Assembly: GCA_037142915.1 (NCBI GenBank)
Contig: JBAWZR010000001.1
Coordinates: 1 to 49,383, forward strand
Direction of reading: 5' to 3'
DNA from: Candidatus Moraniibacteriota bacterium
GTDB lineage: Bacteria; Patescibacteriota; Minisyncoccia; Moranbacterales; UBA1568
Length of the DNA: 49,383 nucleotides
In this document: in pieces, positions 379-43,818 of the stretch
How positions within the stretch are numbered: position 1 is the first letter of the stretch
How the letters are laid out: each line of letters starts with the position of its first letter
Notes under the pieces: generated by a model
What the model was told of the DNA's origin: nothing
Seen by the model: only the letters and a program-made list of their open reading frames with translations
Database searches by the model: none
Translations under genes and position numbers: made by a program

Positions 379-546
379 GACGATTCGTAGGGGCCGGAGT
401 CGGTCTCGCGCCAAAGAGCGAGACGAGTGTGCCATAACGAGTCCAATAATCTTCTTGTCCGATACTATCGGATAAGGCATAGGAAACAAATACATTCCAT
501 TTGCTTGTCGCGTTCGAGCGACCTGCAAAGAGTAAAAATGATTATT

Positions 547-735: not shown

Positions 736-747
736 TTTTTTTATCTT

Positions 748-17183: not shown

Positions 17184-17437
17184 TATATATCGCTGGGTAG
17201 AGCAGGACTCGATAAGTCAGCTCGTATAGGAACAGTTGAGAAAGTAGAATCGTTGTGTTTCAGGAAAGTATATATCGTGAGACAGAGCAGGGTCTATGGT
17301 GACAGCTCGTACGGGGACAGTATTAGAAGGAAAGTTTTGTGTTTTGTGAGAATATATATCGCGGGGTAGAGCAGGACTCGATAAGTCAGCTCGTATAGGA
17401 ACAGTTGAGAAAGTAGAATCGTTGTGTTTCAGGAAAG
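17184..17437 (+). repeat. three tandem 84-85 nt pseudo-units, each starting with TATATAT plus the 5' acceptor/D-arm sequence of the downstream tRNA-Met
   Basis: Units are 17184-17268, 17269-17352 and 17353-17437. Units 1 and 3 differ by one base as read (cgcTgggtag vs cgcGgggtag). Unit 2 is diverged. All share TATATATCG..G..AGAGCAGG...AGCTCGTA with the true tRNA at 17445. None has a matching 3' acceptor strand. Confidence 0.8.
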
Positions 17438-17444
17438 TATATAT

Positions 17445-17518
17445 CGCGGGGTAGAGCAGTCTGGCAGCTCGTCTGGCTCATAACCAGGAGGTCGTGGGTT
17501 CAAATCCCACCCCCGCAA
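17445..17518 (+). tRNA. tRNA-Met (anticodon CAT), initiator-like
   Basis: CGCGGGG...CCCCGCA acceptor with a C1/A72 mismatch (bacterial initiator hallmark). Anticodon loop CTCATAA. T arm GTGGG-TTCAAAT-CCCAC. No CCA encoded. The anticodon stem has only two of the usual three G-C pairs next to the loop. Confidence 0.9.
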
Positions 17519-19577: not shown

Positions 19578-19651
19578 GGACTGGTAGCTCAGTTGGTTAG
19601 AGCACTACCCTGTCACGGTAGGGGTCGCGAGTTCGAGTCTCGTCCAGTCCG
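19578..19651 (+). tRNA. tRNA-Asp (anticodon GTC)
   Basis: GGACTGG/CCAGTCC acceptor, anticodon arm CTACC-CTGTCAC-GGTAG, T arm GCGAG-TTCGAGT-CTCGT. Confidence 0.95.
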
Positions 19652-20188: not shown

Positions 20189-20698
20189 ATGAATCAAGAA
20201 TTTACAATGGCGAGCTTGCAGCAAGTGCTCGACTACGATAATGCGCGAGTGCTTAACAAGTTTCGCACCATGTATTCCGTTTCGCAGGATGAAGTGCAAG
20301 AGATCTTTACTGAAATGAAAAAATGGCTTTGGCTAAGTGCTCAACGAAAAGCTTCCGTTAGAAATGGGCAACTGAAAGATTTCGGTACGCTGGTTATTCA
20401 TACCGGAATGGTTATCATCGACGAGTTGTGGCACACTTTCATTCTTCATACGCAGGATTATACGGATTTTTGCAATCGGTATTTTGGATTTTATATCCAT
20501 CATTCACCAGGGAGTCCAGATTTTCTACCACAGTCGGACGAGAAGAACCGAGAGCAGCTCAATTATATATGGGATCTCTTAGGTGGAGAAACTCTTGTTA
20601 GATGGTATGAAGAATATCCTGTAAGGTACTCCCCAGAAATATTGCTTGGGTTGATACGTCAGCCGGTATTTGGCAGACCTTGTGAGGTGGTGGTATGA
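20189..20698 (+). CDS. glycine-rich-domain-containing-protein-like (GRDP/DUF1399-like) protein
   Basis: The IIDELWHTFILHTQDYTDFCNRYFGFYIHHSP motif (D-x2-WH-x-[HF]-IL-x-T-x2-Y) is shared with the paralog at 39520..39987. RBS AGGAGG upstream. 4-nt overlap with the next gene. Confidence 0.55.
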   Translation: MNQEFTMASLQQVLDYDNARVLNKFRTMYSVSQDEVQEIFTEMKKWLWLSAQRKASVRNGQLKDFGTLVIHTGMVIIDELWHTFILHTQDYTDFCNRYFGFYIHHSPGSPDFLPQSDEKNREQLNYIWDLLGGETLVRWYEEYPVRYSPEILLGLIRQPVFGRPCEVVV

Positions 20699-21971: not shown

Positions 21972-22058
21972 TAACGGATGAAATATAGTGAGAGCGGGTA
22001 GGGGGTAAGCTACGAAAGTGACACATACTGAAAACATGCATCATTCTCCATCAAAAAA

Positions 22059-22104
22059 GTTCGAACATCGTCCCATATGTCCCGCCATCGTTACGCGAAA
22101 GCGA
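22059..22104 (+). repeat. motif B copy 1: tRNA-3'-end-like 46-nt motif (possible relic att site)
   Basis: GTTCGAACATCGTCCCATATGTCCCGCCATCGTTACGCGAAAGCGA is similar to 30366-30411. It partially resembles the tRNA-Asp 3' end plus flank (GTTCGAGTCTCGTCCAGTCCGCATCGATTAC). Confidence 0.35.
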
Positions 22105-22138
22105 GAGAGAAAACACACATAATCAGCCTCATAAGGGG

Positions 22139-22304
22139 CTGTTTTTGTTTTACTTCTGCAAAAATACGGTATAGAATAGGGGTAAGAGATTTTGAATTCC
22201 TCCCCACCTTTGCGAAGGCGGGGATTGAGGGGCGGTTGAGTTGCATGCGGCTCTGATACAACACCATCCCTCCAGTGGGACAACAAAGGGCTATTGAAAG
22301 CCAT
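22139..22304 (+). repeat. module A copy 1 (166-nt core): T-tract, promoter-like hexamers, conserved leader
   Basis: Near-identical (2 substitutions as read) to 30725-30890 and 41110-41275. It is preceded by its own 7-bp hairpin (22124-22141, CAGCCTC-ATAA-GGGGCTG). TTTACT (22149-22154), 17-nt spacer, TAGAAT (22172-22177). It ends 75 nt before ATG 22380. Confidence 0.85.
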
Positions 22305-22379
22305 CCGTTTCGGCACACGAGGCGACCGCCGGTTTCGGAAAGAGGAGGTTGTAGAAATATTGAAAAGAAAATAATCGTT

Positions 22380-25300
22380 ATGGAAAAAGAAAAAGAGCTT
22401 TCCAGTTTCATAAAATACTGCCTTGGCTATGTCCGGATGACTCGTCAGCGGACGGCTTTGAGTCAGAAAAAGTATTCCATCGAGTTGCCAGCCAACACTT
22501 TTAGTTTGGCTGGCTTACTAAATGGCGAAGAGGATGGAAGTTTGGCAGAACTTATAAACCTAGATACTTTTTATGGATACGATCCAAAGGATGTTCCGGA
22601 GGACTTGAAAGAGGTATATGAAAAAGAGAAGGCATTGGCGAATAAAATAGATGAAATTCACAGTAAATATAGGAATGATCCTTATACAAAACAGACAATT
22701 TTGAATTTTGGTTATTTTGAAATAGAGATACCCACAGAGTCAAATGGTGATGTTGTGGTTGCTGATGATGCTGATGAAGAACCGCAAGCTGAAAATCTAA
22801 AAACGAAAATTGATCGTTATCCACTCTTTACTTTGCCGATACGCATTGAGGCAGATTTTGATAAGGAAGCAAAAAAATATTCTGTCTATTTTGTTGATTC
22901 GGAAATACAGGTGAATATCGGTATTCTCGAGCCAATTCTTGGGGAAGATTTGTATTTTCGTCTTTTGGAAGAATTGGGCGAATATGAAATGAACGGATTG
23001 CTGACTTTGCCAATTTCAGATCTTGAAGTTTTTAGAGAGATTTGGCACAAGATAAAGGCACAGCTCCGTTTGAAGGACGCGAATTTTGACGAAGAGTCTT
23101 TTTCCTTAGAGGATGTGAAAATTTCTTTGAGTCCGAAGGCGAACTATTTTCTTGCTGAGGATCTTACAAAATTAGCGCAATTACCAGAGGATGCTTTGGA
23201 AAATACCGCCCTCACGAGCTGGACGCAGGATGAAGAGCTTAATATTGAGTCGGATATTCCTCATGAACAAGAATTATTTTTTCCATTTTTGTATGATAAG
23301 TATCAACTTTCGACTCTCTCAATCCTTAATAACAAGGCATCGATTATTCAAGGACCTCCTGGAACAGGGAAATCCGAAACCATCTCGAATATTTTGTGTC
23401 ATTTGGCGGCGACTGGAAAGCGAGTATTGTTCGTGAGTCAAAAAGCTCAGGCTCTCAAAGTGGTCAAAGACAAGTTGAATAAACTGAATGTTAAATATCT
23501 GTATGGGTATTTACCGAATCCAAATTCTGCTCAGATAGGTGAGGAAGATGAGATGGATGGTATTGCTCCGCAATTGAGTGCTTTGAGTTCTCATATTGAT
23601 CGGCTTGGATACAAATTCAATAGGAGGGGGCGTTTGATTGAGAGTAATGACGCTGTGTTAGAACAACCGAATATATCTAAAACAGTTGCTCAGAAAGAAA
23701 AGTATACGAAAATCTTCAATTCAGTAATTGATATTCAGCGTTATATTTACAAACTCCATCAGGAATTGAAACAGTTAGTGGATTATGATATTGAAATTAC
23801 GGATTCTGAAAACTTCTCAAGAGAATTTTCATCCGAGATTTGGGATGGAATAAAAAACATGAAACAGGAAGCTGTGAGGCTTTCAAAAATTATTGAAGGT
23901 TATGATGGCAGTGACGAAAAAGAATATTTTGATAAACTGTTTTCTAGTTTGGAGGTGAGAGGGAAAGAATACGCCCCTGTCTTAGAGGCAATTCGTGATG
24001 ATATGAATGCTTCTGGCTTTGACGGACACTCTAAGATTGGGCGTTCTTTGAATAATTTCTATAGAAATATCCGCCTCGGGTCTGTATTTTCTCAGCTGCC
24101 CAGAGAGATTCGTGATTATATTGACGAGGAGTTGAAGAAGGACATTTCGAGAAACGAAGCAGTTAAATTCCTAAACTTTCTCCATACGCACTGTGCTTAT
24201 CACGAAGCTGTTGAGCGTCTACAAGACCTCGAAACAGATTTCCGAGAAAGACTGGCGGGTTGTGGAGTTTCGGAGGAAGAGTTTTCTTTGCTTGAGAATT
24301 TGATTGATACCTCAAGCACTGATGGATTGGATGATGTAAAAAATAAAATATTGAGAGTTCAAGAAATTAAATCGGAGCTTTTGACGCTGTTCAAGACGGA
24401 GAGTATCAATAGAGCGTCTTCGGCATTGAAAAGTATTGAGCAAGAACGGAAAGATCGTGTCGCTCTGTACATTCAAAATATCGTGAATAAGAATATTCTT
24501 GAAAAATGGAAAACAGGCATAATGATCAAACAAATTATCCAAAAATTCTCGCGCGCCTTTGGAAAATCAAAAAAGGCATTCAAGACATTCGATAATCTTC
24601 GGAAAGATGCCGATAATTTTAATGCGGTACTCGACTTGATACCGATTTGGATTATGGAATTGGATGATGCAAGTCGGATCATCCCTTTAGAATCAGGAAT
24701 CTTTGACTATGTGATTTTAGATGAAGCATCACAGTGTAATGTGGCATATACTTTGCCAGTGATGTTTCGATCATCGCGGGCGATTTTTGTTGGCGATAGC
24801 GAACAGATGCGTGACAGTACGATAATGTTCAAGTCAAATCGCGTTTTTGATGAATTAGCTCGACGCTATCAGATACCTGAAGAGCATCAGATCAAGGCCA
24901 CTGGCTCAGCAGTGCAGTCGGTTCTAGATATTGCCAAAAATCGTGGATTTATGTGCCGAACGCTCCACTATCATTACCGCTCCCCAATGGAATTGATTGA
25001 TTTTAGCAATCGGTATTTCTATAAGCCGAATGGAAAAGATTTGATCCCACTCAATAATAATTACTTGACCTACAAGGATACAAACCGCGTCCTATTACTT
25101 CACCATGTTCAATCGGATTGGAGTGAGGAAATTTCCGACAATGTGAATGTCGCCGAGGCAAAAGCCATTCTCAATCTATTCAAGGAGCTACGCTCCGATG
25201 AGCACTACCAAGATAAATCAATTGGTATTCTCGCATTTTTCAACGCACAAGCGAGTTATATTCGAGAACTCTTTGAAGAAGCGGGCTATAAAGAGGAGAA

Positions 25301-25952
25301 AGAAAACTACAAAGTGAGCATCGTTGAGGGTATACAAGGAGATGAGAAGGACATTATCATCTATTCTTTTGTTATCCGTGATCCAAAACAGAAGAATCGT
25401 TATGGTGCATTAACTGGTGAGGGTGGAGATATTCGAGGGGATATAAACAAAGGGCGCGTTAATGTTGCTTTCTCGCGAGCGCGTTTGCAAGTACATTGCT
25501 TTACAAGTTTATTGCCACATGAAATGCCAACGGGAATTTGGCTGAAGAAATATCTTGAGTATGTCGAAGAGAACGGCGAAGTCGCCTTTAATTCAGGAGA
25601 TTTAAAGCCTTTCGATTCTTATTTTGAAGAGGAGTTTTACCATCTACTCAAAGCAAAACTAAAAAGAGGTTACAAAATACAAAATCAGGTTGAGAGTTGC
25701 GGCTTCAAAATTGATTTTGTCGCAAGCAACTTGAAGACGGGAAAGCGCCTTGCCATAGAATGCGATGGCCCGACACATTTCAAGGACGAGATCGATGAAG
25801 AGTATGGCATTTATATTGAAAGTGATGAAGAAAGACAACGAGTACTCGAAGCAGCCGGCTGGCAGTTTTGTCGGATTAAATATGCAGACTGGATCAATGA
25901 GAATTTTGATCGGGATGCCGTTGTCGCTTATGTTGAGGAATTACTGAACTGA
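22380..25952 (+). CDS. DUF4011-like N-terminus + SF1 (Upf1/DNA2-like) helicase + C-terminal DUF559/Vsr-like endonuclease domain
   Basis: 1190 aa from ATG 22380. Walker A IIQGPPGTGKSET, motif II VILDEASQ, VGDSEQM, and late helicase motifs (EGIQGDEKDIIIYS, VNVAFSRAR). The C-terminus FKIDFVASN...RLAIECDGPTHF is typical of DUF559-type nuclease. The upstream part of ORF 22275 lies inside repeat A and is not counted. Confidence 0.85.
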   Translation: MEKEKELSSFIKYCLGYVRMTRQRTALSQKKYSIELPANTFSLAGLLNGEEDGSLAELINLDTFYGYDPKDVPEDLKEVYEKEKALANKIDEIHSKYRNDPYTKQTILNFGYFEIEIPTESNGDVVVADDADEEPQAENLKTKIDRYPLFTLPIRIEADFDKEAKKYSVYFVDSEIQVNIGILEPILGEDLYFRLLEELGEYEMNGLLTLPISDLEVFREIWHKIKAQLRLKDANFDEESFSLEDVKISLSPKANYFLAEDLTKLAQLPEDALENTALTSWTQDEELNIESDIPHEQELFFPFLYDKYQLSTLSILNNKASIIQGPPGTGKSETISNILCHLAATGKRVLFVSQKAQALKVVKDKLNKLNVKYLYGYLPNPNSAQIGEEDEMDGIAPQLSALSSHIDRLGYKFNRRGRLIESNDAVLEQPNISKTVAQKEKYTKIFNSVIDIQRYIYKLHQELKQLVDYDIEITDSENFSREFSSEIWDGIKNMKQEAVRLSKIIEGYDGSDEKEYFDKLFSSLEVRGKEYAPVLEAIRDDMNASGFDGHSKIGRSLNNFYRNIRLGSVFSQLPREIRDYIDEELKKDISRNEAVKFLNFLHTHCAYHEAVERLQDLETDFRERLAGCGVSEEEFSLLENLIDTSSTDGLDDVKNKILRVQEIKSELLTLFKTESINRASSALKSIEQERKDRVALYIQNIVNKNILEKWKTGIMIKQIIQKFSRAFGKSKKAFKTFDNLRKDADNFNAVLDLIPIWIMELDDASRIIPLESGIFDYVILDEASQCNVAYTLPVMFRSSRAIFVGDSEQMRDSTIMFKSNRVFDELARRYQIPEEHQIKATGSAVQSVLDIAKNRGFMCRTLHYHYRSPMELIDFSNRYFYKPNGKDLIPLNNNYLTYKDTNRVLLLHHVQSDWSEEISDNVNVAEAKAILNLFKELRSDEHYQDKSIGILAFFNAQASYIRELFEEAGYKEEKENYKVSIVEGIQGDEKDIIIYSFVIRDPKQKNRYGALTGEGGDIRGDINKGRVNVAFSRARLQVHCFTSLLPHEMPTGIWLKKYLEYVEENGEVAFNSGDLKPFDSYFEEEFYHLLKAKLKRGYKIQNQVESCGFKIDFVASNLKTGKRLAIECDGPTHFKDEIDEEYGIYIESDEERQRVLEAAGWQFCRIKYADWINENFDRDAVVAYVEELLN

Positions 25953-25990
25953 GAAAATATTTTTAGAGCATAGATTTAAGATGAAATAAT

Positions 25991-27277
25991 ATGAATGAAA
26001 TTATCTGTCCGCATTGCGGAAAAACCTTTAAGGTTGACGAGGCTGGTTTTGCTGACATCCTGAAACAAGTCCGCAATCATGAGTTTGAAAAAGAACTACA
26101 TGCGCGTGTGGAAATGTTCGAAAGAGAGAAAGAAAACGCCATCAAACTCGCAGAGGCTAATATTACGAATACATTGCAAAAGGATCTTGCGAAGAAGGAG
26201 TCTGAGTTAGCTGAACTAGAGGCTAAAAAAGAACGCGAGCTTACTGAGCTTACAGCCAAGAAGGAGGCTGAACTTGCCGAAATGAAATCAAAAATAAACA
26301 ATGCAGAGCTTGAGAAAAAACTTGCTGTCACTGAAGCAGTCAATAAAATTGAGAAAGAGCGTGATGAACTTTCCGGTGAGCTGAAAAGCAAGGATACTGA
26401 GAGACAATTGCTGGAGACATCGCTAAAGGAAAAGTATGCCACTGAGCTTAAGACTAAGGATGACATCATCAAAATGAAGGACGAGGAGATTGCTCTCCGT
26501 AAAGACATGAAGCTCAAGCTCTCGACAAAAATGATCGGTGAAACACTCGAACAGCACTGCGAGACGGAATTCAATAAGCTCCGTGCGACTGGCTTTCAGA
26601 ATGCCTATTTCGAAAAAGACAATGACGCAAAAACCGGTAGCAAGGGCGATTATATTTATTGCGAAAAGGATGAGGCGGGCAATGAAATCATTTCTATTAT
26701 GTTCGAAATGAAAAATGAAGGTGATGAAACCACTACCAAAAAACGAAATGAAGAGTTTTTTCGAGAACTAGATAGGGATCGCATTGAGAAAAAATGTGAA
26801 TATGCTGTATTAGTAACGCTTTTGGAAGCTGAAAGCGAACTTTACAATACCGGAATTGTTGATGTTTCCCATAAATATCCAAAAATGTATGTCGTTCGCC
26901 CGCAGTTTTTCATCTCTATGATAACGCTGCTACGAAACGCCGCTATGAATTCCCTCAAATATAAAGCCGAGCTTGCTCTGATAAAGAACCAGGATATCGA
27001 CATTACCAATTTCGAGGAAAATATGAATAAGTTTAAAGAGGGTTTTGCTAAAAACTATCAGCTAGCTTCTGATCGCTTTAAAACAGCTATCGAAGAAATA
27101 GACAAAACCATTGACCACCTCCAGAAAACCAAAGATGCCCTCTTGTCGTCTGAAAACAACCTCCGTCTCGCCAATAACAAGGCAGAAGATCTGACAATCA
27201 AAAAACTAACACGCGGGAATCCTACGATGACAGCGAAGTTTGCAGAGCTTTCCAATACCGACAAAACCATAGAATAA
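25991..27277 (+). CDS. DUF2130-like protein (Zn-ribbon, long coiled coil, RmuC/PD-(D/E)xK-like C-terminal domain)
   Basis: N-terminal CPHCGK, then about 170 aa of E/K/L-rich coiled coil, then GDYIY...IMFEMKNE...YAVLV, resembling a nuclease-like core. Confidence 0.7.
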
Positions 27278-27321
27278 AATATGAACACATTCAAATATCT
27301 AACTTTATCAAAAAACAAATT

Positions 27322-27795
27322 ATGAACGACATACTTTTTGCGAGAAATTTGGTAAAAGGAAAAATCGCGGAAACGGTATTTGCGCAGATGCTCCGACAGT
27401 CGGGCGAGTTTACGGTTTTGGAATTCGGTTATGAGAAAATCATTCCACAGTTTATCCAAAACGGACGGAAGGAAGACAATGAAATGATTGAGACGCTCAG
27501 GACTGCACCGGATTTTGCCGTGATCAATCACAAGACACGGGAAGTTCGTTTGGTCGAGGTGAAATATATGCAATCCTTACGGCAAGAGTATGTCTTGAAA
27601 TTCGCCGAAAGGATGCATACCTCGTGGAATCCGTCTTACTTGTTTGTGGCGACTTTGGACGGGTTTTACTTTGACGAGATCAATGAAATCATAAAAAACA
27701 AAGGGAATATCTCTTCGCTTCAACACCCGCAAATCTCGGAAGAAATTCAAAACCAATACCTGCAGATCATCAGGGATTTCGAAAGAGGAAAATGA
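27322..27795 (+). CDS. small PD-(D/E)xK nuclease-fold candidate
   Basis: KGKIAETVFAQML ... APDFAVIN ... VRLVEVKYM gives an E / PD / ExK arrangement as in YraN/Hjc-like nucleases. 157 aa. Confidence 0.45.
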   Translation: MNDILFARNLVKGKIAETVFAQMLRQSGEFTVLEFGYEKIIPQFIQNGRKEDNEMIETLRTAPDFAVINHKTREVRLVEVKYMQSLRQEYVLKFAERMHTSWNPSYLFVATLDGFYFDEINEIIKNKGNISSLQHPQISEEIQNQYLQIIRDFERGK

Positions 27796-27819
27796 AGATT
27801 ATAATTTTAGTTTCACCTT

Positions 27820-28503
27820 ATGTCCTACCCAAAAGTCCGTTTCAAGATTAGCAAGAAATTCGATAAAGAAATCGGGGTATACTTTCTCAATAATAAGATC
27901 GGGAAGTACGACTTCGGTAAGGACCGGATTATTAGCGAACACCCTGTTTTTTCGAAGTGGCGAAAATTGAGCGAAGAGGATTTGTGGAAACAGGTTAATC
28001 CGTATGTTGACCGATACTATATTGAACATCAAGCGGAGATCGAATCCTCTTTGGTTGCTATGCAGGTGATATGGGATGCAATTGCCGAGCGGTACTTTCA
28101 AGAGATTGAAAAACTTTTCGGGTCGGTGTCTTTTTATCGTACCAAGACAATTACTGCGCATCTCTCGATTTTCAAGTGTGGGGTGATTGAGGATAATCTG
28201 CGCGGTTTTCAGATTTGGTATAAGACGGAGAGCGAGCCGGATGAGGTGCGTCGGCATATAGCGCACGAGGTATTGCACTTTTACTATTACGCTTACTTGA
28301 AGAAAATGAAGCAAGAAAAACTGCTCGAAAATTGGGATGCGACAGAGATTTTCAATCGAATCATTTTGAACCTCCCACAGTTTAAAGCCTTGACAGGAAA
28401 GGAAGAAATAGGCTATAGTATGCACACTAGAAGCCTCCCGAAATATCGGAAGCTCTGGCAGTCCTCGTCGAACCTTGACGAGTATTTGAGTAAACTTGGC
28501 TGA
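27820..28503 (+). CDS. hypothetical protein with HExxH motif (putative zinc metallopeptidase)
   Basis: RRHIAHEVLHFYYYAY is the only recognisable motif. 227 aa. Its stop is 15 nt before the Cys-peptide start. Confidence 0.4.
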   Translation: MSYPKVRFKISKKFDKEIGVYFLNNKIGKYDFGKDRIISEHPVFSKWRKLSEEDLWKQVNPYVDRYYIEHQAEIESSLVAMQVIWDAIAERYFQEIEKLFGSVSFYRTKTITAHLSIFKCGVIEDNLRGFQIWYKTESEPDEVRRHIAHEVLHFYYYAYLKKMKQEKLLENWDATEIFNRIILNLPQFKALTGKEEIGYSMHTRSLPKYRKLWQSSSNLDEYLSKLG

Positions 28504-28518
28504 ATGGAGGAAAATCCT

Positions 28519-28662
28519 ATGCCTAAGTCATTTGTTGTACCGGGTCAAGCGGCGTTTGACGCCCTGTTGCCCCAAAAAGCCCCCACTACCTCAGTCACCG
28601 GCCGTTGCGGCATGTGCTCAGGGCGTTGTGGCAAGTCGGCACCGAGGCGCGTAAAGCGGTAA
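28519..28662 (+). CDS. 47-aa Cys-rich peptide (candidate RiPP precursor)
   Basis: GGAGG lies 8 nt upstream of the ATG. Sequence is MPKSFVVPGQAAFDALLPQKAPTTSVTGRCGMCSGRCGKSAPRRVKR, with three Cys in GRCGMCSGRCG. It is directly upstream of a radical SAM/SPASM gene and is not in the ORF track (below 60 aa). Confidence 0.5.
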   Translation: MPKSFVVPGQAAFDALLPQKAPTTSVTGRCGMCSGRCGKSAPRRVKR

Positions 28663-28705
28663 GGGCGTATTAACGCTCAGGAAGTATGGCCATACTGACT
28701 GGCAT

Positions 28706-28737
28706 GGCGGGGGAGACTTTGTTTCCCTCGCCATTTT
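28706..28737 (+). terminator. hairpin between peptide and radical SAM gene (attenuator candidate)
   Basis: GGCGGGGGA-gactttgtt-TCCCTCGCC (9 bp, one G-U), then ATTTT. The T-tract is weak. Confidence 0.4.
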
Positions 28738-28766
28738 CATAGCACATTACAAATTGAAGGAGAACA

Positions 28767-30125: not shown

Positions 30126-30166
30126 TCGGCAACATAAGCTTCAACGAGAGCAGTGTATAATAGAGA

Positions 30167-30204
30167 CCTTGGTTTTTCGCAAGAAAGACCAGGGCTCTTT
30201 TTTT
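30167..30204 (+). terminator. strong intrinsic terminator
   Basis: 12-bp stem CCTTGGTTTTTC-GCAA-GAAAGACCAGGG (two G-U pairs, GNRA loop) followed by CTCTTTTTTT. Confidence 0.75.
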
Positions 30205-30365
30205 GAAAAATAAATTTTTCAATCCAATTATTGCAAAATAGAGAAGACAGGCAATTTGTTTTCACTTATCAACCCCGACTCATAACCGCCTCCATCCGCC
30301 AGAACAACACCTCCCATCTCTTGCCGTTCTCGAGCATTTTTGAGAGGATGAGAGGGAAGTAATCG

Positions 30366-30411
30366 GTTCGAAGTGTATCCCGTCGTCCCCGCCATTGTTA
30401 CGCGAAAGTGA
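30366..30411 (+). repeat. motif B copy 2: tRNA-3'-end-like motif
   Basis: GTTCGAAGTGTATCCCGTCGTCCCCGCCATTGTTACGCGAAAGTGA. It shares GTTCGAA...TCCC...GTCCC(C)GCCAT.GTTACGCGAAAG.GA with 22059-22104. Confidence 0.35.
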
Positions 30412-30591
30412 CATTTAGTGAAAAAACAGTTTCTCTGAAAAACAAAAACCCCTTGCGGGGAAGCTGCCCAAAAGACTTGTATCGTCTCGACTCTAGCCAA
30501 CCGATGGATGGGAACATCGAGAACAGTCTCTCAAGGACTTATGCCTATCGTTAGTATATGAGATATCGGGAAATTTAGCAAGAAAAATCAC

Positions 30592-30890
30592 AAAAAGAAG
30601 CTTTTATAAAAGAAAAAATGAAGATTAACTTTTGGGGTATCCTCTGGTAAACAAATAGTGGCTAAATAAATTCCAACCTTGTCCAAAATTTCCGGCCATT
30701 CGGAACGAGCAGTCGCGCAAGCGTCTGTTTTTGTTTTACTTCTGCAAAAATACGGTATAGAATAGGGGTAAGAGATTTTGAATTCCTCCCCACCTTTGCG
30801 AAGGCGGGGATTGAGGGGCGGTTGAGTTGCATGCGGCTCTGATACAACACCATCCCTCCAGTGGGACAAGAAAGGGCTCTTGAAAGCCAT
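30592..30890 (+). repeat. module A copy 2 (299-nt long form)
   Basis: 30592-30890 aligns with 40977-41275, with a few mismatches in the first 50 nt. It contains hairpin CAGTCGC-GCAA-GCGTCTG (30710-30727) plus a T-tract, TTTACT (30735-30740), 17-nt spacer, TAGAAT (30758-30763), and leader hairpins at 30788-30809 and 30824-30839. It ends 79 nt before ATG 30970. Confidence 0.85.
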
Positions 30891-30969
30891 TTGGTTTGGC
30901 GGGCAATGCAAACATTGTTTCAGTAGCGACACCTTATGAAAATTATGAATAGCTGAAAATAGTAACAAT

Positions 30970-32556
30970 ATGACAAATAAAAAATCAAGTTCTAGTATGA
31001 CCAAAGAGCAGGAGCGTTCAGAGCTCCATCGTGCTATCTGGCAGATTGCCAATGACTTGCGCGGGAGCGTCGATGGTTGGGATTTCAAACAGTATGTACT
31101 CGGGGTGCTTTTTTATCGCTTCATTAGTGAGAATCTGACCAATTATATCAACGCTGATGAGCGTCGCGCAGGTAAAAATGATTTTGATTACAGTGCGCTT
31201 TCCGACAAAGAAGCTGAGTTTGGCCGAACTGATACGGTCAAAGAGAAGGGTTTTTATATTCTCCCGAGCGAGCTGTTCATCAATGTCCGCAAGAATGCCC
31301 GTAATGATGCCAACCTAAACGAAACACTTACTGCCGTTTTTCGTAACATTGAAAGTTCCGCCAGAGGTACTGAAAGCGAGCCTGATCTCAAGGGTTTATT
31401 TGATGATCTTGATGTAAATTCTAATAAACTGGGAAGCACGGTAGAGAAACGAAATCAGAGACTCACGAAACTCTTTGAATCTATTGGCGACCTTCGTCTC
31501 GGTGATTACGCCGACAACACTATCGATGCTTTCGGTGATGCGTATGAGTTCTTGATGACGATGTATGCCTCCAATGCAGGGAAGTCGGGTGGTGAATTTT
31601 ATACCCCGCAGGAAGTAAGCGAGCTCTTGGCCGAGATCACCACGGTTGGCAAGACAGAAGTGAACAAAGTCTATGACCCCGCTTGCGGTTCGGGATCACT
31701 GCTTCTCAAGTTCGCCAAAGTACTCGGCAAGGAAAACGTGCGCCAAGGTTTCTACGGGCAGGAGATCAACCTCACTACCTACAACCTCTGCCGTATCAAT
31801 ATGTTTTTGCACGACATCAACTATAATAATTTCGACATCGCTCACGGTGATACACTCATAGATCCAAAGCACTGGGATGATGAACCGTTTGACGCTATCG
31901 TTTCCAATCCGCCATATTCTATCCGATGGGAGGGCGACGCTAATCCGCTTCTGATCAATGATCCGCGTTTTTCACCTGCGGGAGTGCTTGCGCCAAAGAG
32001 TAAAGCTGACCTCGCCTTTACGATGCATATGCTCTCGTGGCTCTCGACGAGCGGCACGGCGGCGATTGTTGAATTTCCCGGCGTTCTCTATCGTGGCGGT
32101 GCGGAGGGTAAAATAAGAAAGTATCTGGTAGATAACAACTACATCGATGCGGTCATCCAGCTCCCACCCGATCTCTTCTTTGGTACGACTATCGCGACCT
32201 GTGTCATCGTGATCAAAAAGAGCAAGAAGGATAATAAGACGCTCTTTATTGATGCTTCTGCTGAGTTTGTGCGAGGGGGTAACAAAAATAAATTGAGCGA
32301 GGGCAATCGTCTCAAGATTTTAGATGCATTCAGTACTCGCAAAGATGCAGAATATTTTGCCAAGCTGGTAGATAACAAGACTATTGCCGATAATGACTAC
32401 AATATCGCCGTATCCAGCTATGTTGTGGGTGAAGATACTCGCGAAGTAGTGGATATTACAGAACTCAATATAAAAATCACCAAGATTGTCGCCAGACAAA
32501 ATGAACTCCGCACGGCGATTGATGAAATTGTGGCAGATATTGAGGGGACAAAATAA
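30970..32556 (+). CDS. hsdM: Type I restriction-modification system, DNA methyltransferase subunit
   Basis: HsdM N-terminal domain (LHRAIWQIANDLRGSVDGWDFKQYVLGVLFYRFISE), SAM motif VYDPACGSGSLLL, and catalytic SNPPYS. The start could also be ATG 30997. Confidence 0.95.
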   Translation: MTNKKSSSSMTKEQERSELHRAIWQIANDLRGSVDGWDFKQYVLGVLFYRFISENLTNYINADERRAGKNDFDYSALSDKEAEFGRTDTVKEKGFYILPSELFINVRKNARNDANLNETLTAVFRNIESSARGTESEPDLKGLFDDLDVNSNKLGSTVEKRNQRLTKLFESIGDLRLGDYADNTIDAFGDAYEFLMTMYASNAGKSGGEFYTPQEVSELLAEITTVGKTEVNKVYDPACGSGSLLLKFAKVLGKENVRQGFYGQEINLTTYNLCRINMFLHDINYNNFDIAHGDTLIDPKHWDDEPFDAIVSNPPYSIRWEGDANPLLINDPRFSPAGVLAPKSKADLAFTMHMLSWLSTSGTAAIVEFPGVLYRGGAEGKIRKYLVDNNYIDAVIQLPPDLFFGTTIATCVIVIKKSKKDNKTLFIDASAEFVRGGNKNKLSEGNRLKILDAFSTRKDAEYFAKLVDNKTIADNDYNIAVSSYVVGEDTREVVDITELNIKITKIVARQNELRTAIDEIVADIEGTK

Positions 32557-39302: not shown

Positions 39303-39519
39303 TATTGCTTAATAAGTGGTATTGAGTGGTATTAAATCCAAGATATTACGAATCTTAGATTTATCGGTGGTGTATAGCTTTGTGTACCCACCATATCATA
39401 TTGCAGTTCTTTAAAAGAGATTTTTTGAATCAAGTACATTTCGTTTCGTGCTTCTTTCATTAAATAAATAGTGCTGGTGCAAATCAGTGTTTTGTAAATT
39501 TAAAAAAGAGGATCCTCTA

Positions 39520-40934: not shown

Positions 40935-40976
40935 AGAGAACTTCTATCAAATGTAAGGTTTCGCGATTAACTTGAT

Positions 40977-41275
40977 AAAAAGAGGCTTTTATAAAGGAAA
41001 AAATGAAGATTAACCTTTAGGGTATCCTCTGGTAAACAAATAGTGGCTAAATAAATTCCAACCTTGTCCAAAATTTCCGGCCATTCGGAACGAGCAGTCG
41101 CGCAAGCGTCTGTTTTTGTTTTACTTCTGCAAAAATACGGTATAGAATAGGGGTAAGAGATTTTGAATTCCTCCCCACCTTTGCGAAGGCGGGGATTGAG
41201 GGGCGGTTGAGTTGCATGCGGCTCTGATACAACACCATCCCTCCAGTGGGACAAGAAAGGGCTCTTGAAAGCCAT
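40977..41275 (+). repeat. module A copy 3 (299-nt long form)
   Basis: Aligns to 30592-30890 and, for the core 41110-41275, to 22139-22304. TTTACT 41120-41125 and TAGAAT 41143-41148. It ends 92 nt before ATG 41368. Confidence 0.85.
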
Positions 41276-41367
41276 CCGCATCGGGGAGCGCAAGGCGAGA
41301 AGGTATCGCAAGGAGGATATTCTGAAGATGATTGAGGATAAATAAAAACAAAATATATTATATTACT

Positions 41368-43818
41368 ATGGCGATCAAGAAATCTCAACTGTACAGCTCT
41401 ATATGGAAAGCGTGTGATGAATTGCGTGGCGGAATGGATGCATCGCAGTATAAGGACTATGTGTTGGTACTTTTATTTGTCCGGTATGTATCCGACAAAT
41501 ACAGTAATCTTGAGGATTCGTTGGTGGAAATTCCAAAGGGTGGTGGCTTTGTAGATCTTATTGCACTCAAAGGGACAACGGATATTGGAAGCGGTATCAA
41601 TATAGTGTTGTCGAAATTGGCAAGCGCCAACGGACTTGTCGGTGTGATAGATCAAGTGGATTTTGATGATGAAGACAAACTTGGAAAGGGTAAGGAAATG
41701 CAAGATCGTCTTTCTGCATTGATTGGTATATTTGAAAATGCGGATTTGGATTTTAGTAAGAACCGCGCTGAAGGGGATGATCTTTTGGGCGATGCCTATG
41801 AGTATTTGATGAAACATTTTGCGGTGCAATCAGGAAAAAGCAAGGGTCAATTCTATACTCCAGCAGAAGTATCGCGCATTATGGCAAAGGTGATCGATGC
41901 TCGGCATTCATCCGGACAAACACAAACCGTGTACGATCCAGCATGCGGGAGTGGCTCGCTTCTCTTGAAAGTTGCCGATGAAGCGCACAAAGGTATCACT
42001 ATTTACGGGCAAGAATTGGACAATGCCACTGCCGGATTGGCCGTCCTGAATATGTGGCTTCACGGGAGAGCTATTTCCACCATCAAGAAAGGGCAGAGTA
42101 CGCTTTCCGATCCTCTTTTTACTGAGAATAGGGAGCTCAAAACATTTGATTATGTAGTTGCCAATCCGCCTTTCTCTTCAAAAAATTGGCGCAACGGTTT
42201 TGATCCTTCCAATGATACATACGATCGTTTTGACGGCTATGGTATCCCGCCCGAGAAAAATGGCGATTACGCTTTTTTGCTTCACATTCTCAAGTCATTA
42301 AAAAGCACGGGAACGGGTGCAGTCATTTTGCCTCACGGTGTTTTGTTTCGTGGCAATGTGGAGGCGGATATTCGCACCAACATCATCCATCGCGGATATA
42401 TCAAAGGTATCATTGGTTTGCCTGCCAATCTTTTCTATGGCACGGGTATTCCGGCTTGTATTATCGTGTTGGACAAAGCGGGCGCAGGGGAGCGCAAGGG
42501 GATTTTTATGATCGATGCTTCCAAAGGATTCGTCAAAGACGGCAACAAAAACCGTCTGCGTGAGCAAGACATCCGCAAGATCACAGATGCGTGGAGCAAT
42601 GCTTTAGAAATTCCAAAATACTCCCGTTTCGTTTCCAATGAGGAAATTCACAAAAACGAATACAATCTCAATCTTCCTCGGTATATTGATACGCAAGCGC
42701 CCGAAGATATTCAAGATATCGAGGCTCATCTCAAAGGTGGTATTCCTGATGGCGATATCGAAATCCTCGCTCCGTATTGGCAGGTCTGTCCGACGCTCAA
42801 GAAAGCGCTTTTCAAAAAGAACGGTCGAGCGGGGTATAGTGAGATGCTCATCGCGCACGACGAGGTCAAGAAAACCATCCTCACACATCCCGAATTTCTG
42901 ACATTCAAAAAACAAACCCTTGCAACCTTTACCGAGTGGAAAGAAATATCGACGCCATTTTTCAAAGCACTCTCGCAAAAGGATCACCCTAAGGCTATCA
43001 TCTCAACCATTACCGAAACACTCTTGCAACACTGCGCAGATTTTCGTTTGATTGACAAATATGACCTCTATCAACACCTGATGAATTATTGGGAAGAGAC
43101 GATGCAAGACGATGCGTATGTCATCACGGTGGACGGCTGGCAAGCAGGCAAGGAATTGATGCGTATGCAAAAAGAAACCAAAAACAAAGGCAAGAACGTC
43201 AAAAAAACGGTGCCGGGACTCTATGGTCTTGAAGGGCGATTGGTGCCGATCGAACTTGCCATCGAAACCTATTTTTCCAAAGAGCAATCTGCACTCGATG
43301 CGCTCATTATCGCATTGGAGCAAACAGGTGCCGATATGGAAGCATTCAAAGATGAACACGGAGGCGAGGATGGTCTGCTTGCCGAGGTGATCGAGAATGA
43401 CAAGATTAAAAAAATTGATGTGCAAAAACGCATCAAGATGATCAAAAAGAGCAAGGCTGATGCCGAGGAGTTGGCAGTGCTTGAGTTGTATCTTGCGCTC
43501 TTTGAAAAAGAAACCGCAACCAAACAATTCATCAAAGATGCCGAGAAGGATTTGGAGAACAAACTCTTGGCGAAGTACCCGACACTTTCAGAAGAAGAAA
43601 TCAAGACACTGACTATCGATAAAAAATGGATGGGTGAATTGACCATGCGGGTAACGGGCGAGGTGGATCGCTTGTCGCAAACCCTTGCCGGAAGGGTCAA
43701 GGAATTGGCGGAGCGTTATGAGACACCCTTGCCGATCATTAAGCGGGAAGTGGAAACATTGACCGAGAAAGTCGAGCAACATCTGACAAAGATGGGTTTT
43801 GATGTGACAAAACTATGA
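41368..43818 (+). CDS. hsdM: Type I R-M DNA methyltransferase subunit (long form with coiled-coil C-terminal extension)
   Basis: SQLYSSIWKACDELRGGMDASQYKDYVLVLLFVRYVSDKY, VYDPACGSGSLLL, and VANPPFS. 816 aa. Confidence 0.95.
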   Translation: MAIKKSQLYSSIWKACDELRGGMDASQYKDYVLVLLFVRYVSDKYSNLEDSLVEIPKGGGFVDLIALKGTTDIGSGINIVLSKLASANGLVGVIDQVDFDDEDKLGKGKEMQDRLSALIGIFENADLDFSKNRAEGDDLLGDAYEYLMKHFAVQSGKSKGQFYTPAEVSRIMAKVIDARHSSGQTQTVYDPACGSGSLLLKVADEAHKGITIYGQELDNATAGLAVLNMWLHGRAISTIKKGQSTLSDPLFTENRELKTFDYVVANPPFSSKNWRNGFDPSNDTYDRFDGYGIPPEKNGDYAFLLHILKSLKSTGTGAVILPHGVLFRGNVEADIRTNIIHRGYIKGIIGLPANLFYGTGIPACIIVLDKAGAGERKGIFMIDASKGFVKDGNKNRLREQDIRKITDAWSNALEIPKYSRFVSNEEIHKNEYNLNLPRYIDTQAPEDIQDIEAHLKGGIPDGDIEILAPYWQVCPTLKKALFKKNGRAGYSEMLIAHDEVKKTILTHPEFLTFKKQTLATFTEWKEISTPFFKALSQKDHPKAIISTITETLLQHCADFRLIDKYDLYQHLMNYWEETMQDDAYVITVDGWQAGKELMRMQKETKNKGKNVKKTVPGLYGLEGRLVPIELAIETYFSKEQSALDALIIALEQTGADMEAFKDEHGGEDGLLAEVIENDKIKKIDVQKRIKMIKKSKADAEELAVLELYLALFEKETATKQFIKDAEKDLENKLLAKYPTLSEEEIKTLTIDKKWMGELTMRVTGEVDRLSQTLAGRVKELAERYETPLPIIKREVETLTEKVEQHLTKMGFDVTKL

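What the first reader, a model, noticed from the sequence alone, without database searches (positions are those of the whole stretch)
22124..22379. Near-identical non-coding module repeated three times, each just upstream of a defence-type operon (copy 1, before the helicase-nuclease operon)
**Copies and position**
- A 166-nt core (22139-22304, 30725-30890, 41110-41275) differs by only about 2 bases between copies.
- All copies are in direct orientation.
- They end 75, 79 and 92 nt before the start codons of the helicase-nuclease gene, hsdM-1 and hsdM-2.

**Plus-strand reading**
- A 7-bp hairpin plus T-tract comes first. The stem sequences differ between copy 1 (CAGCCTC-ATAA-GGGGCTG) and copies 2/3 (CAGTCGC-GCAA-GCGTCTG), but pairing is kept.
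- Then TTTACT, a 17-nt spacer, and TAGAAT.
- Then a leader of about 125 nt with hairpins CCCCACCTT-TGCG-AAGGCGGGG (one A-C mismatch) and GAGTTG-CATG-CGGCTC.

**Strand and interpretation**
- Three G-U pairs are valid only on the plus strand, against one on the minus strand. This favours a plus-strand RNA.
- This looks like a shared promoter plus structured 5' leader (cis-regulator or small RNA) controlling several defence operons. It could also be a recombination or cassette boundary.
- I do not recognise it as a known RNA family.
Basis: partly seen in the sequence, partly recalled or inferred. Interest (0 to 1): 0.85.

Follow-up and report, generated by a model that had tools for sequence, protein, structure and literature searches.

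The report
Decayed regulator-gene leader repeated before defence operons
The thrice-repeated "non-coding module" is real, but it is best read as a promoter plus a disabled copy of a small DNA-binding "leader" gene that heads restriction and defence operons in related bacteria, copied between three operons by recombination, not as a new structured RNA.

Summary
Three direct copies of a 166-nt core (22139-22304, 30725-30890, 41110-41275) are 164-166/166 identical and end 75, 79 and 92 nt before a helicase-nuclease gene and two hsdM genes.

The right end of every copy is the 3' third of a 66-68-aa HTH_17 (excisionase/MerR-like) gene. In about 46 related loci this gene is intact and lies 1-5 nt before the first gene of R-M or defence operons. 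A strain variant (L002) has the intact gene in front of the very same helicase operon.

In the window the gene is dead: an in-frame TGA, an unrecognisable N-terminal half, and no N-terminal fragment anywhere. To its left lie a promoter-like site with the family's layout, a terminator hairpin and degenerate tRNA-Asp 3'-end remnants. A relative (L008) carries the same kind of 298-nt repeat with intact genes.

Population contigs show mosaic junctions inside the conserved WDNKGLLKA codons. The module is therefore a cassette boundary with a shared promoter and pseudo-leader, homogenised by recombination.

No Rfam family matches and no diverged homologue was found. Covariation cannot be tested. The plus strand folds no better than shuffles. 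The minus strand folds unusually well, and this is unexplained.

The parts
19578..19651 (+). tRNA-Asp gene, the anchor of the island (last gene of an Ile-Met-Met-Asp tRNA cluster, as in relative L008)
   Evidence: ARAGORN and Rfam; same tRNA cluster in L008
22058..22094 (+). Degenerate remnant of the tRNA-Asp 3' end plus its 3' flank (att-like direct repeat), left of copy 1
   Evidence: Local alignment to window tRNA-Asp 3' end; score reached by 1 of 1000 shuffles; alignment A4
22124..22150 (+). 7-bp hairpin plus T-tract (intrinsic-terminator-like). Corresponds to the terminator that follows tRNA-Asp in L008 and in the window
   Evidence: -11.1 kcal/mol, z = -3.35; L008 layout
22139..22304 (+). 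Core copy 1 (166 nt; 164/166 identical to copy 2)
22149..22177 (+). Promoter-like site TTTACT-17-TAGAAT, followed by GTAAG; same layout as the conserved promoter block of intact HTH leader genes
   Evidence: PWM from 32 related units: the three cores are the three best hits in the window (8.8 bits; reached by 2 of 200 shuffles; training sequences score 31-59)
22192..22239 (+). Residual 15-codon reading frame (TTG ... TGA) in the same frame as the HTH remnant. No similarity to the N-terminal half of the family. Contains the hairpin CCCCACCTT-TGCG-AAGGCGGGG
   Evidence: Translation; TGA is a genuine stop here (12 of 33 window ORFs end in TGA); nhmmer finds no homology here
22259..22374 (+). Remnant of the HTH_17 leader gene: WDNKGLLKAIRFGTRGDRRFRKEEVVEILKRK, stop TAA at 22372-22374, 5 nt before the helicase ATG
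   Evidence: tblastn 22276-22371, E = 2e-18; nhmmer 22274-22374, E = 3e-23, envelope from 22259; identical to the intact gene of L002 from 22297 on
22380..25952 (+). SF1 helicase + MTES_1575 nuclease gene (first gene of operon 1)
   Evidence: Pfam; PADLOC PDC-S37/Hhe/Mokosh-like
30364..30394 (+). Second tRNA-Asp 3'-end remnant; matches the tRNA-Asp of relative L008 rather than the window's own
   Evidence: Local alignment, 0 of 1000 shuffles
30456..30553 (-). DUF3800-V RNA gene with its own promoter-like site and minus-strand terminator. A neighbour of copy 2, not part of the core
   Evidence: Rfam RF02964, 49.9 bits against gathering score 37.4; promoter-like site 30581->30553; terminator read
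30574..30724 (+). Left extension shared by copies 2 and 3 (92%). Holds a weak relic of a promoter block (about 30616-30671), a probable third tRNA-end remnant (about 30670-30702) and the hairpin + T-tract (30710-30736)
   Evidence: The remnant here is not significant on its own
30725..30890 (+). Core copy 2
30860..30901 (+). HTH remnant of copy 2 (WDKKGLLKAIWFG, then degenerate)
   Evidence: E = 4.5e-8
30970..32556 (+). hsdM-1 (operon hsdM-hsdS-RhuM-hsdR)
40959..41109 (+). Left extension of copy 3; begins 25 nt after the peptidase S9 gene
41110..41275 (+). Core copy 3 (166/166 identical to copy 2)
41245..41345 (+). HTH remnant of copy 3 (WDKKGLLKAIRIGERKARRYRKEDILKMIEDK, stop). Open to the normal stop and diverged from copy 1 by conservative changes
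   Evidence: E = 3.5e-16
41368..43818 (+). hsdM-2 (operon hsdM-hsdS-Fic-hsdR)

Best explanation
Each copy is the left boundary of a defence cassette in an island that starts at tRNA-Asp.

From left to right a copy holds:
- a degenerate remnant of the tRNA-Asp 3' end;
- a terminator hairpin;
- a sigma-70-like promoter;
- a disabled copy of a small HTH_17 (excisionase/MerR-like) 'leader' gene.

In relatives this leader gene is intact. It abuts or overlaps the first gene of R-M and other defence operons, which suggests translational coupling.

The 166-nt identical core is the promoter plus the dead 5' two-thirds of that gene. It was spread over, or homogenised among, three operons by homologous recombination or gene conversion. 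The right-hand crossover lies in the gene's most conserved stretch (codons WDNKGLLKA).

Shown:
- the repeat itself;
- the gene remnant and its in-frame stop;
- the intact gene at the same operon in another strain;
- the family's position at the head of defence operons;
- the tRNA remnants;
- the mosaic variants.

Inferred:
- Transcription of each operon starts at the shared promoter (about 22184) and runs through a roughly 190-nt leader.
- No HTH protein is made from these copies. Control by that protein is therefore either lost (constitutive expression) or supplied in trans.
- The direct repeats are substrates for loss, gain and reshuffling of the cassettes between them.
For: (1) tblastn and a DNA profile of 42 related units place HTH-family homology at 22274-22374, 41245-41345 and 30860-30901, in frame and ending at the family's normal stop.

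(2) Contig L002 carries the same helicase-nuclease operon (99.95% over 8.6 kb) but with an intact 67-aa HTH gene and a divergent upstream gene. It becomes identical to the window from 22297 on. It also ends in a copy-2-type module.

(3) Ten intact proteins define the family, with invariant residues including A22, C23 and W36-R50. P0001 passes the cutoff of TIGR01764 'excisionase family DNA-binding'.

(4) In the units examined the downstream ORF mostly starts 1-5 nt after the HTH stop or overlaps it. Of 46 downstream ORFs, 13 match ResIII, 9 match N6_N4 methylase, 5 match SNF2, and others are HsdM, helicase-nuclease, HamA and EcoRI methylase. The upstream neighbours of 49 units include 13 divergent DNA methylases and 7 large serine recombinases.

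(5) Intact units share a promoter block, CTTTACT-N17-TGTAAACTnATGGTAAGT. The window's three cores are the three best PWM hits, in the right register.

(6) L008 has tRNA-Asp, terminator, promoter and HTH#1, then a partial tRNA-Asp 3' end, the same terminator and promoter, and HTH#2. This is a 298-nt direct repeat at 95% before two consecutive cassettes.

(7) The window's left-flank motifs align significantly with tRNA-Asp 3' ends.

(8) Variants: L097 keeps NTLRQ in frame and shows synonymous changes in RFGT; L098 differs again; L094 joins flank 1 and the core directly to hsdM-2.

(9) TGA is a real stop in this genome, and no N-terminal fragment of the gene exists anywhere in the window.
Against: - The left 120-135 nt of the core shows no statistically detectable similarity to intact units by local alignment. 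The promoter-layout match is weak (8.8 bits against 31-59 for real units; reached by 2 of 200 shuffles). This part could therefore be foreign sequence fused to the gene rather than a decayed copy.
- 166/166 identity beside a 92% flank could reflect selection on the core rather than recent conversion.
- The minus strand of 22178-22304 folds much better than shuffles (z = -3.07). The pseudogene reading does not predict this.
- No integrase is present in the window among the ORFs scanned, so how the cassettes arrived is open.
- L094 may be an assembler path through the repeat; L099 shows the assembler can cross it.
- No expression data exist.
Confidence: 0.7

Rival explanations
1. Site-specific cassette adaptor. 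The core, or its sharp right edge in ...GAAAGCCAT, would be the attachment site of a recombinase such as a large serine recombinase encoded elsewhere. Defence operons would be captured, stacked and excised as cassettes, much as on an integron-like platform.
For: - All three copies and the L002/window junction share one right boundary (22297-22304).
- The copies are in direct orientation with different cargo between them.
- tRNA-end remnants lie beside each copy.
- 7 of 49 related HTH units have a large serine recombinase gene immediately upstream and divergent.
- L094 looks like a precise excision of the two intervening cassettes.
Against: - No recombinase gene was found among the window ORFs scanned.
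- The common boundary coincides with the most conserved DNA of the HTH family, which is where homologous crossovers are expected anyway.
- L097 has its junction about 45 nt further left, and the identical tract of copies 2/3 is 256 nt rather than 166. Boundaries are therefore not fixed.
- No inverted repeats were found.
Confidence: 0.12
2. Plus-strand structured 5' leader. The transcript from the shared promoter would fold into hairpins that act as a cis-regulator, or are processed into a small RNA, controlling all three operons.
For: - Promoter-like site and hairpins are present in all copies.
- In L097 a GAGGGG/CCCTTC pairing would survive as a G-U on the plus strand only (my reading of the sequence).
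- The core is more uniform than its flank.
Against: - The plus-strand fold is no better than shuffles (z = -0.15 on two intervals).
- There is no Rfam match.
- There is no homologue in related loci or in the collections scanned.
- The three copies are identical, so there is no covariation.
- Half of the proposed leader is a decayed coding sequence.
Confidence: 0.08
3. Minus-strand element. The core would encode, or act as, a structured RNA or single-stranded DNA on the minus strand. Examples would be an antisense RNA to the operon leaders, or an RNA comparable to the DUF3800-V sRNA that lies on the minus strand next to copy 2.
For: - The minus strand of 22178-22304 folds at -44.7 kcal/mol, z = -3.07, with 0 of 200 shuffles as good. 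A longer interval gives z = -2.62.
- Two helices have a G-U on the minus strand where the plus strand has A-C.
- A genuine minus-strand sRNA gene (DUF3800-V) occupies the equivalent position after another tRNA remnant.
Against: - No promoter-like site on the minus strand to the right of copy 1, and no T-run after the minus-strand hairpin.
- The right flanks differ between copies, so a shared promoter would have to lie inside the core.
- A covariance model of the minus-strand fold finds nothing in 92 other loci.
- The z-score comes from a single sequence.
Confidence: 0.07
4. The leader gene is still functional. A recoding event at the TGA, or a restart, would yield a small protein that regulates the operons.
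For: - The frame is continuous from TTG 22192 to TAA 22372 apart from one TGA. The total is 62 codons, against 66-68 in the family.
- The C-terminal parts of copies 1 and 3 stay open and differ by conservative changes.
Against: - TGA terminates 12 of 33 ORFs in the window.
- The segment that should form the first helices (PDILTLxxACxxLNCHxNTLR) is unrecognisable and Gly/Pro/Arg-rich.
- Copy 2 is frameshifted after 13 residues.
Confidence: 0.03

Closest known systems
Controller (C) proteins of restriction-modification systems (e.g. C.PvuII, C.AhdI, C.Esp1396I)
   Same: A small helix-turn-helix gene lies immediately upstream of, and abuts or overlaps, the restriction or first operon gene. A methylase gene is often transcribed divergently. 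Related loci show this layout: 13 of 46 downstream ORFs match ResIII and 13 of 49 upstream neighbours are methylases. The comparison with C proteins rests on general knowledge.
   Different: The fold family is HTH_17 / excisionase-MerR-like (PF12728, TIGR01764), not the Xre-type HTH_3 of C proteins. No C-box operator has been shown. The family also heads non-R-M defence genes (helicase-nuclease, HamA). In the window the gene is dead in all three copies.
Excisionase-family / BldC / MerR-like small DNA-binding proteins (TIGR01764, PF12728; PDB 6amk, 6ama, 4j2n)
   Same: The intact relatives (P0001-P0010) belong here by sequence.
   Different: Those proteins act as recombination directionality factors or developmental regulators. 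Here the gene is the first cistron of defence operons, and only its last 32 codons survive in the window.
Genomic or defence islands built by tandem insertion at a tRNA gene, bounded by direct repeats of the tRNA 3' end
   Same: An intact tRNA-Asp lies at one end, with degenerate tRNA-Asp 3'-end remnants before successive cassettes. L008 shows the clean version of this arrangement.
   Different: No integrase is present in the window. The remnants are degenerate. The repeated unit extends far beyond the att-like repeat into a terminator, a promoter and a gene. Only 4 of 67 related units sit next to an intact tRNA.
Integron gene cassettes and attC sites
   Same: Direct-repeat boundaries lie between unrelated cargo operons. 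The minus (bottom) strand folds better.
   Different: There is no IntI gene and no attC-type imperfect palindrome. The cassettes carry their own promoter. The repeat is nearly identical in sequence, whereas attC sites are conserved in structure only.
DUF3800-associated RNA motifs (Weinberg et al. 2017, PMC5737381)
   Same: A bona fide DUF3800-V RNA lies 170 nt left of core copy 2, on the minus strand. That paper describes 11 unrelated structures around DUF3800 genes.
   Different: The core does not match any DUF3800 model or any other Rfam model. The window has no DUF3800 gene.
MADS MAD1 helix-turn-helix protein (NCBIfam NF047737)
   Same: It is a small HTH protein named as part of a methylation-associated defence system.
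   Different: The match is only 16 bits against a cutoff of 80, so the family here is not a member.

Membership tests
Any Rfam family / known structured RNA | Covariance-model match at or near the gathering score | tested here: not met
   Gathering scan of the whole window and E <= 10 scans of all three copies. Only weak hits (HgcC on the minus strand 17.7 bits against 50; IRES_Tobamo; rli61; STnc240)
Novel structured RNA (either strand) | Compensatory base changes in helices across homologues | not testable with these tools
   The three copies are identical over 22178-22275. No diverged homologue was found
Novel structured RNA (either strand) | Fold more stable than shuffled sequence | tested here: inconclusive
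   Plus strand z = -0.15; minus strand z = -3.07 for the same 127 nt
HTH_17 leader-gene unit of defence operons (family defined here from P0001-P0010 and 80 loci) | Sequence homology to the family gene | tested here: met
   nhmmer E = 3e-23, 3.5e-16 and 4.5e-8 for copies 1, 3 and 2, profile positions 158-258 only; tblastn
HTH_17 leader-gene unit of defence operons | Intact 66-68-codon ORF with the helix-turn-helix half (PDILTLxxACxxLNCHxNTLR) | tested here: not met
   In-frame TGA at 22237-22239. The N-terminal half is unrecognisable and no fragment exists elsewhere in the window
HTH_17 leader-gene unit of defence operons | Stop codon a few nt before the first operon gene | tested here: met
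   Copy 1: TAA 22372-22374, ATG 22380 (5 nt, identical to L002). Copy 3: 22 nt. Family: mostly 1-5 nt or overlapping
HTH_17 leader-gene unit of defence operons | Conserved promoter block CTTTACT-N17-TGTAAACTnATGGTAAGT | tested here: inconclusive
   The -35, the spacing and GTAAG are kept. PWM 8.8 bits against 31-59 for members. These are the top three hits in the window, but the score is reached by 2 of 200 shuffles
C-protein-controlled R-M system | Xre-type (HTH_3) controller protein binding C-box operators | tested here: not met
   The family is PF12728/TIGR01764, not HTH_3. No clear palindromic operator was seen in the promoter block (my reading)
C-protein-controlled R-M system | Autoregulatory delay of restriction relative to methylation | not testable with these tools
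   Needs expression experiments
tRNA-linked integrative island | Direct repeats of the tRNA 3' end flanking inserted DNA, with an intact tRNA at one end | tested here: met
   tRNA-Asp at 19578-19651. Remnants at 22058-22094 (1 of 1000 shuffles) and 30364-30394 (0 of 1000). A third at about 30670 is not significant alone
tRNA-linked integrative island | Integrase or recombinase encoded in the island | tested here: not met
   None among the 33 window ORFs scanned with Pfam. 7 of 49 related units have an adjacent large serine recombinase
Integron cassette / attC | IntI integrase and attC imperfect palindromes between promoterless cassettes | tested here: not met
   No integrase; no inverted-repeat pairs; the cassettes carry a promoter-like site
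IS / MITE end | Terminal inverted repeats, target-site duplication, multiple dispersed copies | tested here: not met
   0 inverted-repeat pairs in the window. The copies occur only at the equivalent place before operons. No hit in plasmid, phage, viral or genome collections
Intrinsic terminator (left edge of module) | GC-rich hairpin followed by a T-run | tested here: met
   Equivalent terminators follow tRNA-Asp in the window and in L008

The most novel reading that the evidence does not exclude
The 166-nt core would not be debris. It would be a selected, portable 'leader adaptor' that does three things. It replaces the protein controller of defence operons with a fixed promoter. It adds an unrecognised structured element (the roughly 80-nt GC-rich segment whose minus strand folds exceptionally well). 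Through the conserved WDNKGLLKA codons, it acts as a landing pad that lets small-genome bacteria capture, stack and shed defence operons without a dedicated integrase. A wider version: the HTH_17 leader unit, seen in at least 342 metagenomic loci, would be a previously undescribed controller family and a recombination anchor for R-M and defence systems.
Probability: 0.15. Interest if true: 0.7.

Novelty: new variant of a known kind. Interest (0 to 1): 0.38.

Why it matters
For the original claim, the result is deflationary. A candidate new regulatory RNA turns out to be mostly a promoter plus a pseudogenised regulator gene.

What remains useful:
- A small excisionase/MerR-like gene with a conserved promoter block heads hundreds of R-M and defence operons in related, probably small-genome, uncultured bacteria. 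This is a controller-like arrangement using a different fold from the classical C proteins.
- The gene's conserved codons act as crossover points. As a result, whole defence operons differ between strains of one lake population.
- The window shows an end state in which three operons have lost the regulator and share one promoter.

If expression data confirmed this, it would be a natural experiment on what the leader protein does.

Tried and rejected
Collection scans and similarity searches:
- Exact-pattern scans for the core: viral contigs gave 0 hits. GTDB genomes gave 2 hits, both judged chance: L007 is the end of a coding gene, and L006 shares 27 nt including a similar hairpin but nothing else. 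Metagenome contigs gave 0 hits.
- blastn and nhmmer of the core against 91 loci found only same-population contigs. blastn against plasmids and phages gave no match.
- A covariance model of the minus-strand fold gave nothing below E = 0.3.

Protein searches with conceptual translations of the core:
- The plus frame matched only through the HTH C-terminus.
- The minus-strand 114-aa ORF gave nothing.
- A 47-aa minus frame against 1.8 billion representatives gave one repetitive spurious protein, which I rejected.

Ideas tested and dropped:
- That the roughly 80-nt unknown segment is another tRNA-Asp remnant: not significant (371-876 of 1000 shuffles).
- That short minus-strand 'MAG...' ORFs left of each copy are gene starts: these sequences are tRNA 3'-end remnants read backwards.
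- That TGA might be a sense codon (code 25): TGA ends 12 of 33 ORFs.
- A search for the divergent gene of L002 to find what lies upstream in that strain: no hit.
- A literature search for HTH_17-led R-M operons or tRNA-linked defence islands in Patescibacteria: nothing specific.
Full report
**1. Observation**

The repeat is real and the coordinates are accurate.
- The repeat finder and a MAFFT alignment recover three direct copies.
- The core 22139-22304 / 30725-30890 / 41110-41275 is 164/166 identical between copies 1 and 2. The differences are at 22284 and 22293. Copies 2 and 3 are 166/166 identical.
- Copies 2 and 3 are in fact identical over 256 nt (30635-30890). They stay alignable to 30574, at 92% over 30574-30724.
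- The cores end 75, 79 and 92 nt before ATG 22380, 30970 and 41368.

The downstream genes are defence genes.
- The first is an SF1 helicase fused to an MTES_1575 nuclease (PADLOC PDC-S37/Hhe-like), followed by DUF2130.
- The other two are type I R-M operons, carrying RhuM and Fic genes.

The hairpin plus T-tract and TTTACT-17-TAGAAT are found by the consensus scans. One detail is overstated: the hairpin of copies 2/3 has an internal T-T mismatch.

**2. The right end of the module is coding sequence**

I looked up contigs that encode the identical helicase-nuclease protein. This gave L002, which is 99.95% identical to the window over 8.6 kb (22276-30865).
- Upstream of the helicase, L002 has a 67-aa gene with HTH_17/MerR domains, ending 5 nt before the helicase ATG.
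- L002 and the window are identical from 22297 on and unrelated to the left of 22276.
- The window sequence 22276-22371 translates to WDNKGLLKAIRFGTRGDRRFRKEEVVEILKRK, the exact C-terminus of that protein.
- Copy 3 encodes a diverged but open version (WDKKGLLKAIRIGERKARRYRKEDILKMIEDK-stop).
- Copy 2 keeps 13 residues and then degenerates.
- A DNA profile of 42 related units aligns to 22274-22374 (E = 3e-23), 41245-41345 and 30860-30901. Only profile positions 158-258 align.

Upstream in the same frame there is a TGA at 22237-22239 and no usable start after it.
- TGA is a genuine stop here: it ends 12 of 33 ORFs.
- No N-terminal fragment of the gene exists anywhere in the window.

All three operons are therefore preceded by the same truncated, dead copy of this gene.

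**3. What the gene is in relatives**

A protein search returned ten intact 66-68-aa proteins. Their pattern is MKKQ..PDILTLxxACxxLNCHxNTLRxWDNKGLLKAIRFGTRxDRRYRKEDV.
- P0001 passes the cutoff of TIGR01764 'excisionase family DNA-binding'.
- The nearest solved structures are BldC-type proteins and a mycobacteriophage Xis, at weak E-values.

A metagenome scan found 342 loci encoding relatives, of which 80 were fetched.
- In the units examined, the next ORF mostly starts 1-5 nt after the HTH stop or overlaps it.
- Of 46 such ORFs, 13 match ResIII, 9 match N6_N4 methylase, 5 match SNF2, 3-4 are AAA_11/12 + MTES_1575 helicase-nucleases, and 3 are HsdM. There is also one HamA and one EcoRI methylase.
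- The upstream neighbours of 49 units include 13 divergent DNA methylases (9 with ParB_N) and 7 large serine recombinases.
- The family is almost absent from viral contigs.

The gene is thus the first cistron of R-M and defence operons. The layout recalls controller (C) proteins, but the fold family is different. That it regulates these operons is inferred from position only.

**4. The rest of the module**

Intact units share a conserved promoter block: CTTTACT, 17 nt, TGTAAACTnATGGTAAGT, then about 10 nt to the ATG.
- The window core has TTTACT, 17 nt, TAGAAT, AGGG, GTAAG. A TTG at 22192 then opens the HTH frame.
- A PWM built from 32 units puts the three cores as the three best hits in the window, in the correct register. 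The score is low, however (8.8 bits against 31-59 for real units), and 2 of 200 shuffles reach it.

Left of the promoter, relative L008 is the key comparison.
- L008 has the same tRNA Ile-Met-Met-Asp cluster as the window.
- Its order is tRNA-Asp, terminator, promoter, HTH#1 and a small cassette. Then come a partial tRNA-Asp 3' end, the same terminator, promoter and HTH#2, and a type I R-M operon with a DUF3800 gene.
- This forms a 298-nt direct repeat at 95%.
- The window's left-flank motifs align with tRNA-Asp 3' ends. 22058-22094 matches the window's own tRNA-Asp plus its flank (1 of 1000 shuffles). 30364-30394 matches the L008-type tRNA-Asp (0 of 1000). A third motif near 30670 / 41055 is only probable.

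The module is therefore: tRNA-end remnant, terminator, promoter, leader gene. This is the same architecture as in L008, with the gene disabled.

**5. Evidence for recombination**

Contigs from the same lakes that carry the methyltransferase gene upstream of copy 1 show several arrangements.
- L097 has the core, but with a different right end that keeps NTLRQWDKKGILTAIRFGT in frame and shows synonymous changes. Profile homology there starts 14 positions earlier.
- L098 differs again.
- L094 joins flank 1 and the core directly to the copy-3 right side and hsdM-2, skipping 19 kb. The helicase and peptidase proteins were not found in that sample. L099, however, shows the assembler can traverse this repeat, so a chimera is not excluded.
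- L002 has the intact gene plus a divergent gene ('geneY'). That gene is conserved next to such units in L009, L013 and L034 and is absent from the window. L002 also ends in a copy-2-type module.

The crossover shared by all copies and by L002 lies in the family's most conserved DNA, the codons WDNKGLLKA.

Zero differences in 166 nt beside a flank with 8% divergence would have a probability of about 1e-6 if the two had evolved alike (my calculation). This points to recent conversion or to selection.

**6. Is there an RNA?**

- No Rfam family matches the core on either strand.
- The three copies are identical over 22178-22275, so covariation cannot be assessed.
- No homologue of the roughly 80-nt segment between promoter and gene remnant was found by any route. 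It is not a tRNA remnant.
- The plus strand folds like shuffled sequence (z = -0.15).
- The minus strand of the same 127 nt folds at z = -3.07, with 0 of 200 shuffles as good. The 9-bp hairpin's A-C mismatch becomes a G-U there.
- I found no minus-strand promoter or terminator at copy 1.

This minus-strand result remains unexplained and keeps a small probability on an RNA or single-stranded-DNA role.

**7. Mechanism proposed**

Shown:
- the anatomy of the module;
- the dead gene;
- the intact counterpart at the same operon in another strain;
- the family's position at the head of defence operons;
- the att-like remnants;
- the mosaic junctions.

Inferred:
- The hairpin insulates each cassette from upstream transcription.
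- The shared promoter drives each operon through a roughly 190-nt leader.
- No HTH protein is made from these copies. Control by it is either lost or supplied in trans by a paralogue outside the window.
- The three direct repeats mediate deletion, duplication and exchange of the cassettes.

How the cassettes first arrived is open. Candidates are site-specific integration at tRNA-Asp by a recombinase encoded elsewhere, or homologous capture through the leader.

**8. Verdict**

The feature is real. The novel-RNA reading is largely explained away. The cassette-boundary and shared-promoter readings are supported.

The HTH_17 leader family and its role as a crossover point are a modestly new variant of known themes: controller genes, tRNA-linked islands, and gene conversion between paralogous leaders. 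Interest is moderate.

Noticed in passing
window 30456-30553 (minus), with 30581-30553 and 30468-30440: A bona fide DUF3800-V RNA (RF02964, 49.9 bits) with its own promoter-like site and minus-strand terminator. It sits between two tRNA-Asp 3'-end remnants, like a 300-nt mini-cassette. There is no DUF3800 protein gene in the window, whereas relative L008 has one inside its type I R-M operon.
   Followed up: partly
window 427-1938 (+): Reverse transcriptase gene (RVT_1; PADLOC RT/DRT-like hits) at the left end of the window, upstream of uvrA.
   Followed up: no
window 17184-17290 and 17353-17459: A 107-nt direct repeat (95%) inside the tRNA Ile-Met-Met cluster.
   Followed up: no
L017, L021, L023, L030, L060, L075, about 60-120 nt upstream of the HTH start: Conserved motif gggATGACGC-N10-12-GGAGTCCAGAGCGTCC upstream of the HTH promoter. 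In L023 it lies between the promoter and a divergent ~440-aa minus-strand ORF. These loci all have such an ORF, and large serine recombinases are among the upstream neighbours (7 of 49), but I did not assign them locus by locus. No Rfam hit at gathering score. It could be an att site or a 5' UTR element.
   Followed up: no
L008-L091, 60 nt upstream of the HTH start codons: Strongly conserved promoter block CTTTACT-N17-TGTAAACTnATGGTAAGTyA. Weaker look-alikes at window 21368 (before the methyltransferase gene) and 45090 (before the Fic gene) suggest TGTAnACTTAT..TAAGT may be a general promoter/start signature of these organisms rather than an operator.
   Followed up: partly
L002:2-463 (minus); homologues in L009, L013, L034: An uncharacterised gene ('geneY', no Pfam domain) is a conserved divergent partner of the HTH leader unit in four loci (followed by a helicase-nuclease in L002 and L009). 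It is missing from the window, so the window's helicase system is a 5'-truncated version.
   Followed up: partly
window 20189-20698 and 39487-39987: Two UCP032817-like paralogues, each in the small non-defence gene group that precedes a module (before copy 1 and before copy 3).
   Followed up: no
window 33799-34827 and 45163-46323: RhuM (PADLOC PDC-S05) and Fic (SoFic-like) genes are embedded inside the two type I R-M operons, between hsdS and hsdR.
   Followed up: no
L006:5772-5798 (Candidatus Subterrananammoxibius MAG): A 27-nt near-identical match to the core's hairpin region (CCTTGCGAAGGCGGGGATTGAGGGG), forming a similar hairpin. Nothing else is shared. Judged chance given the size of the collection.
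   Followed up: partly
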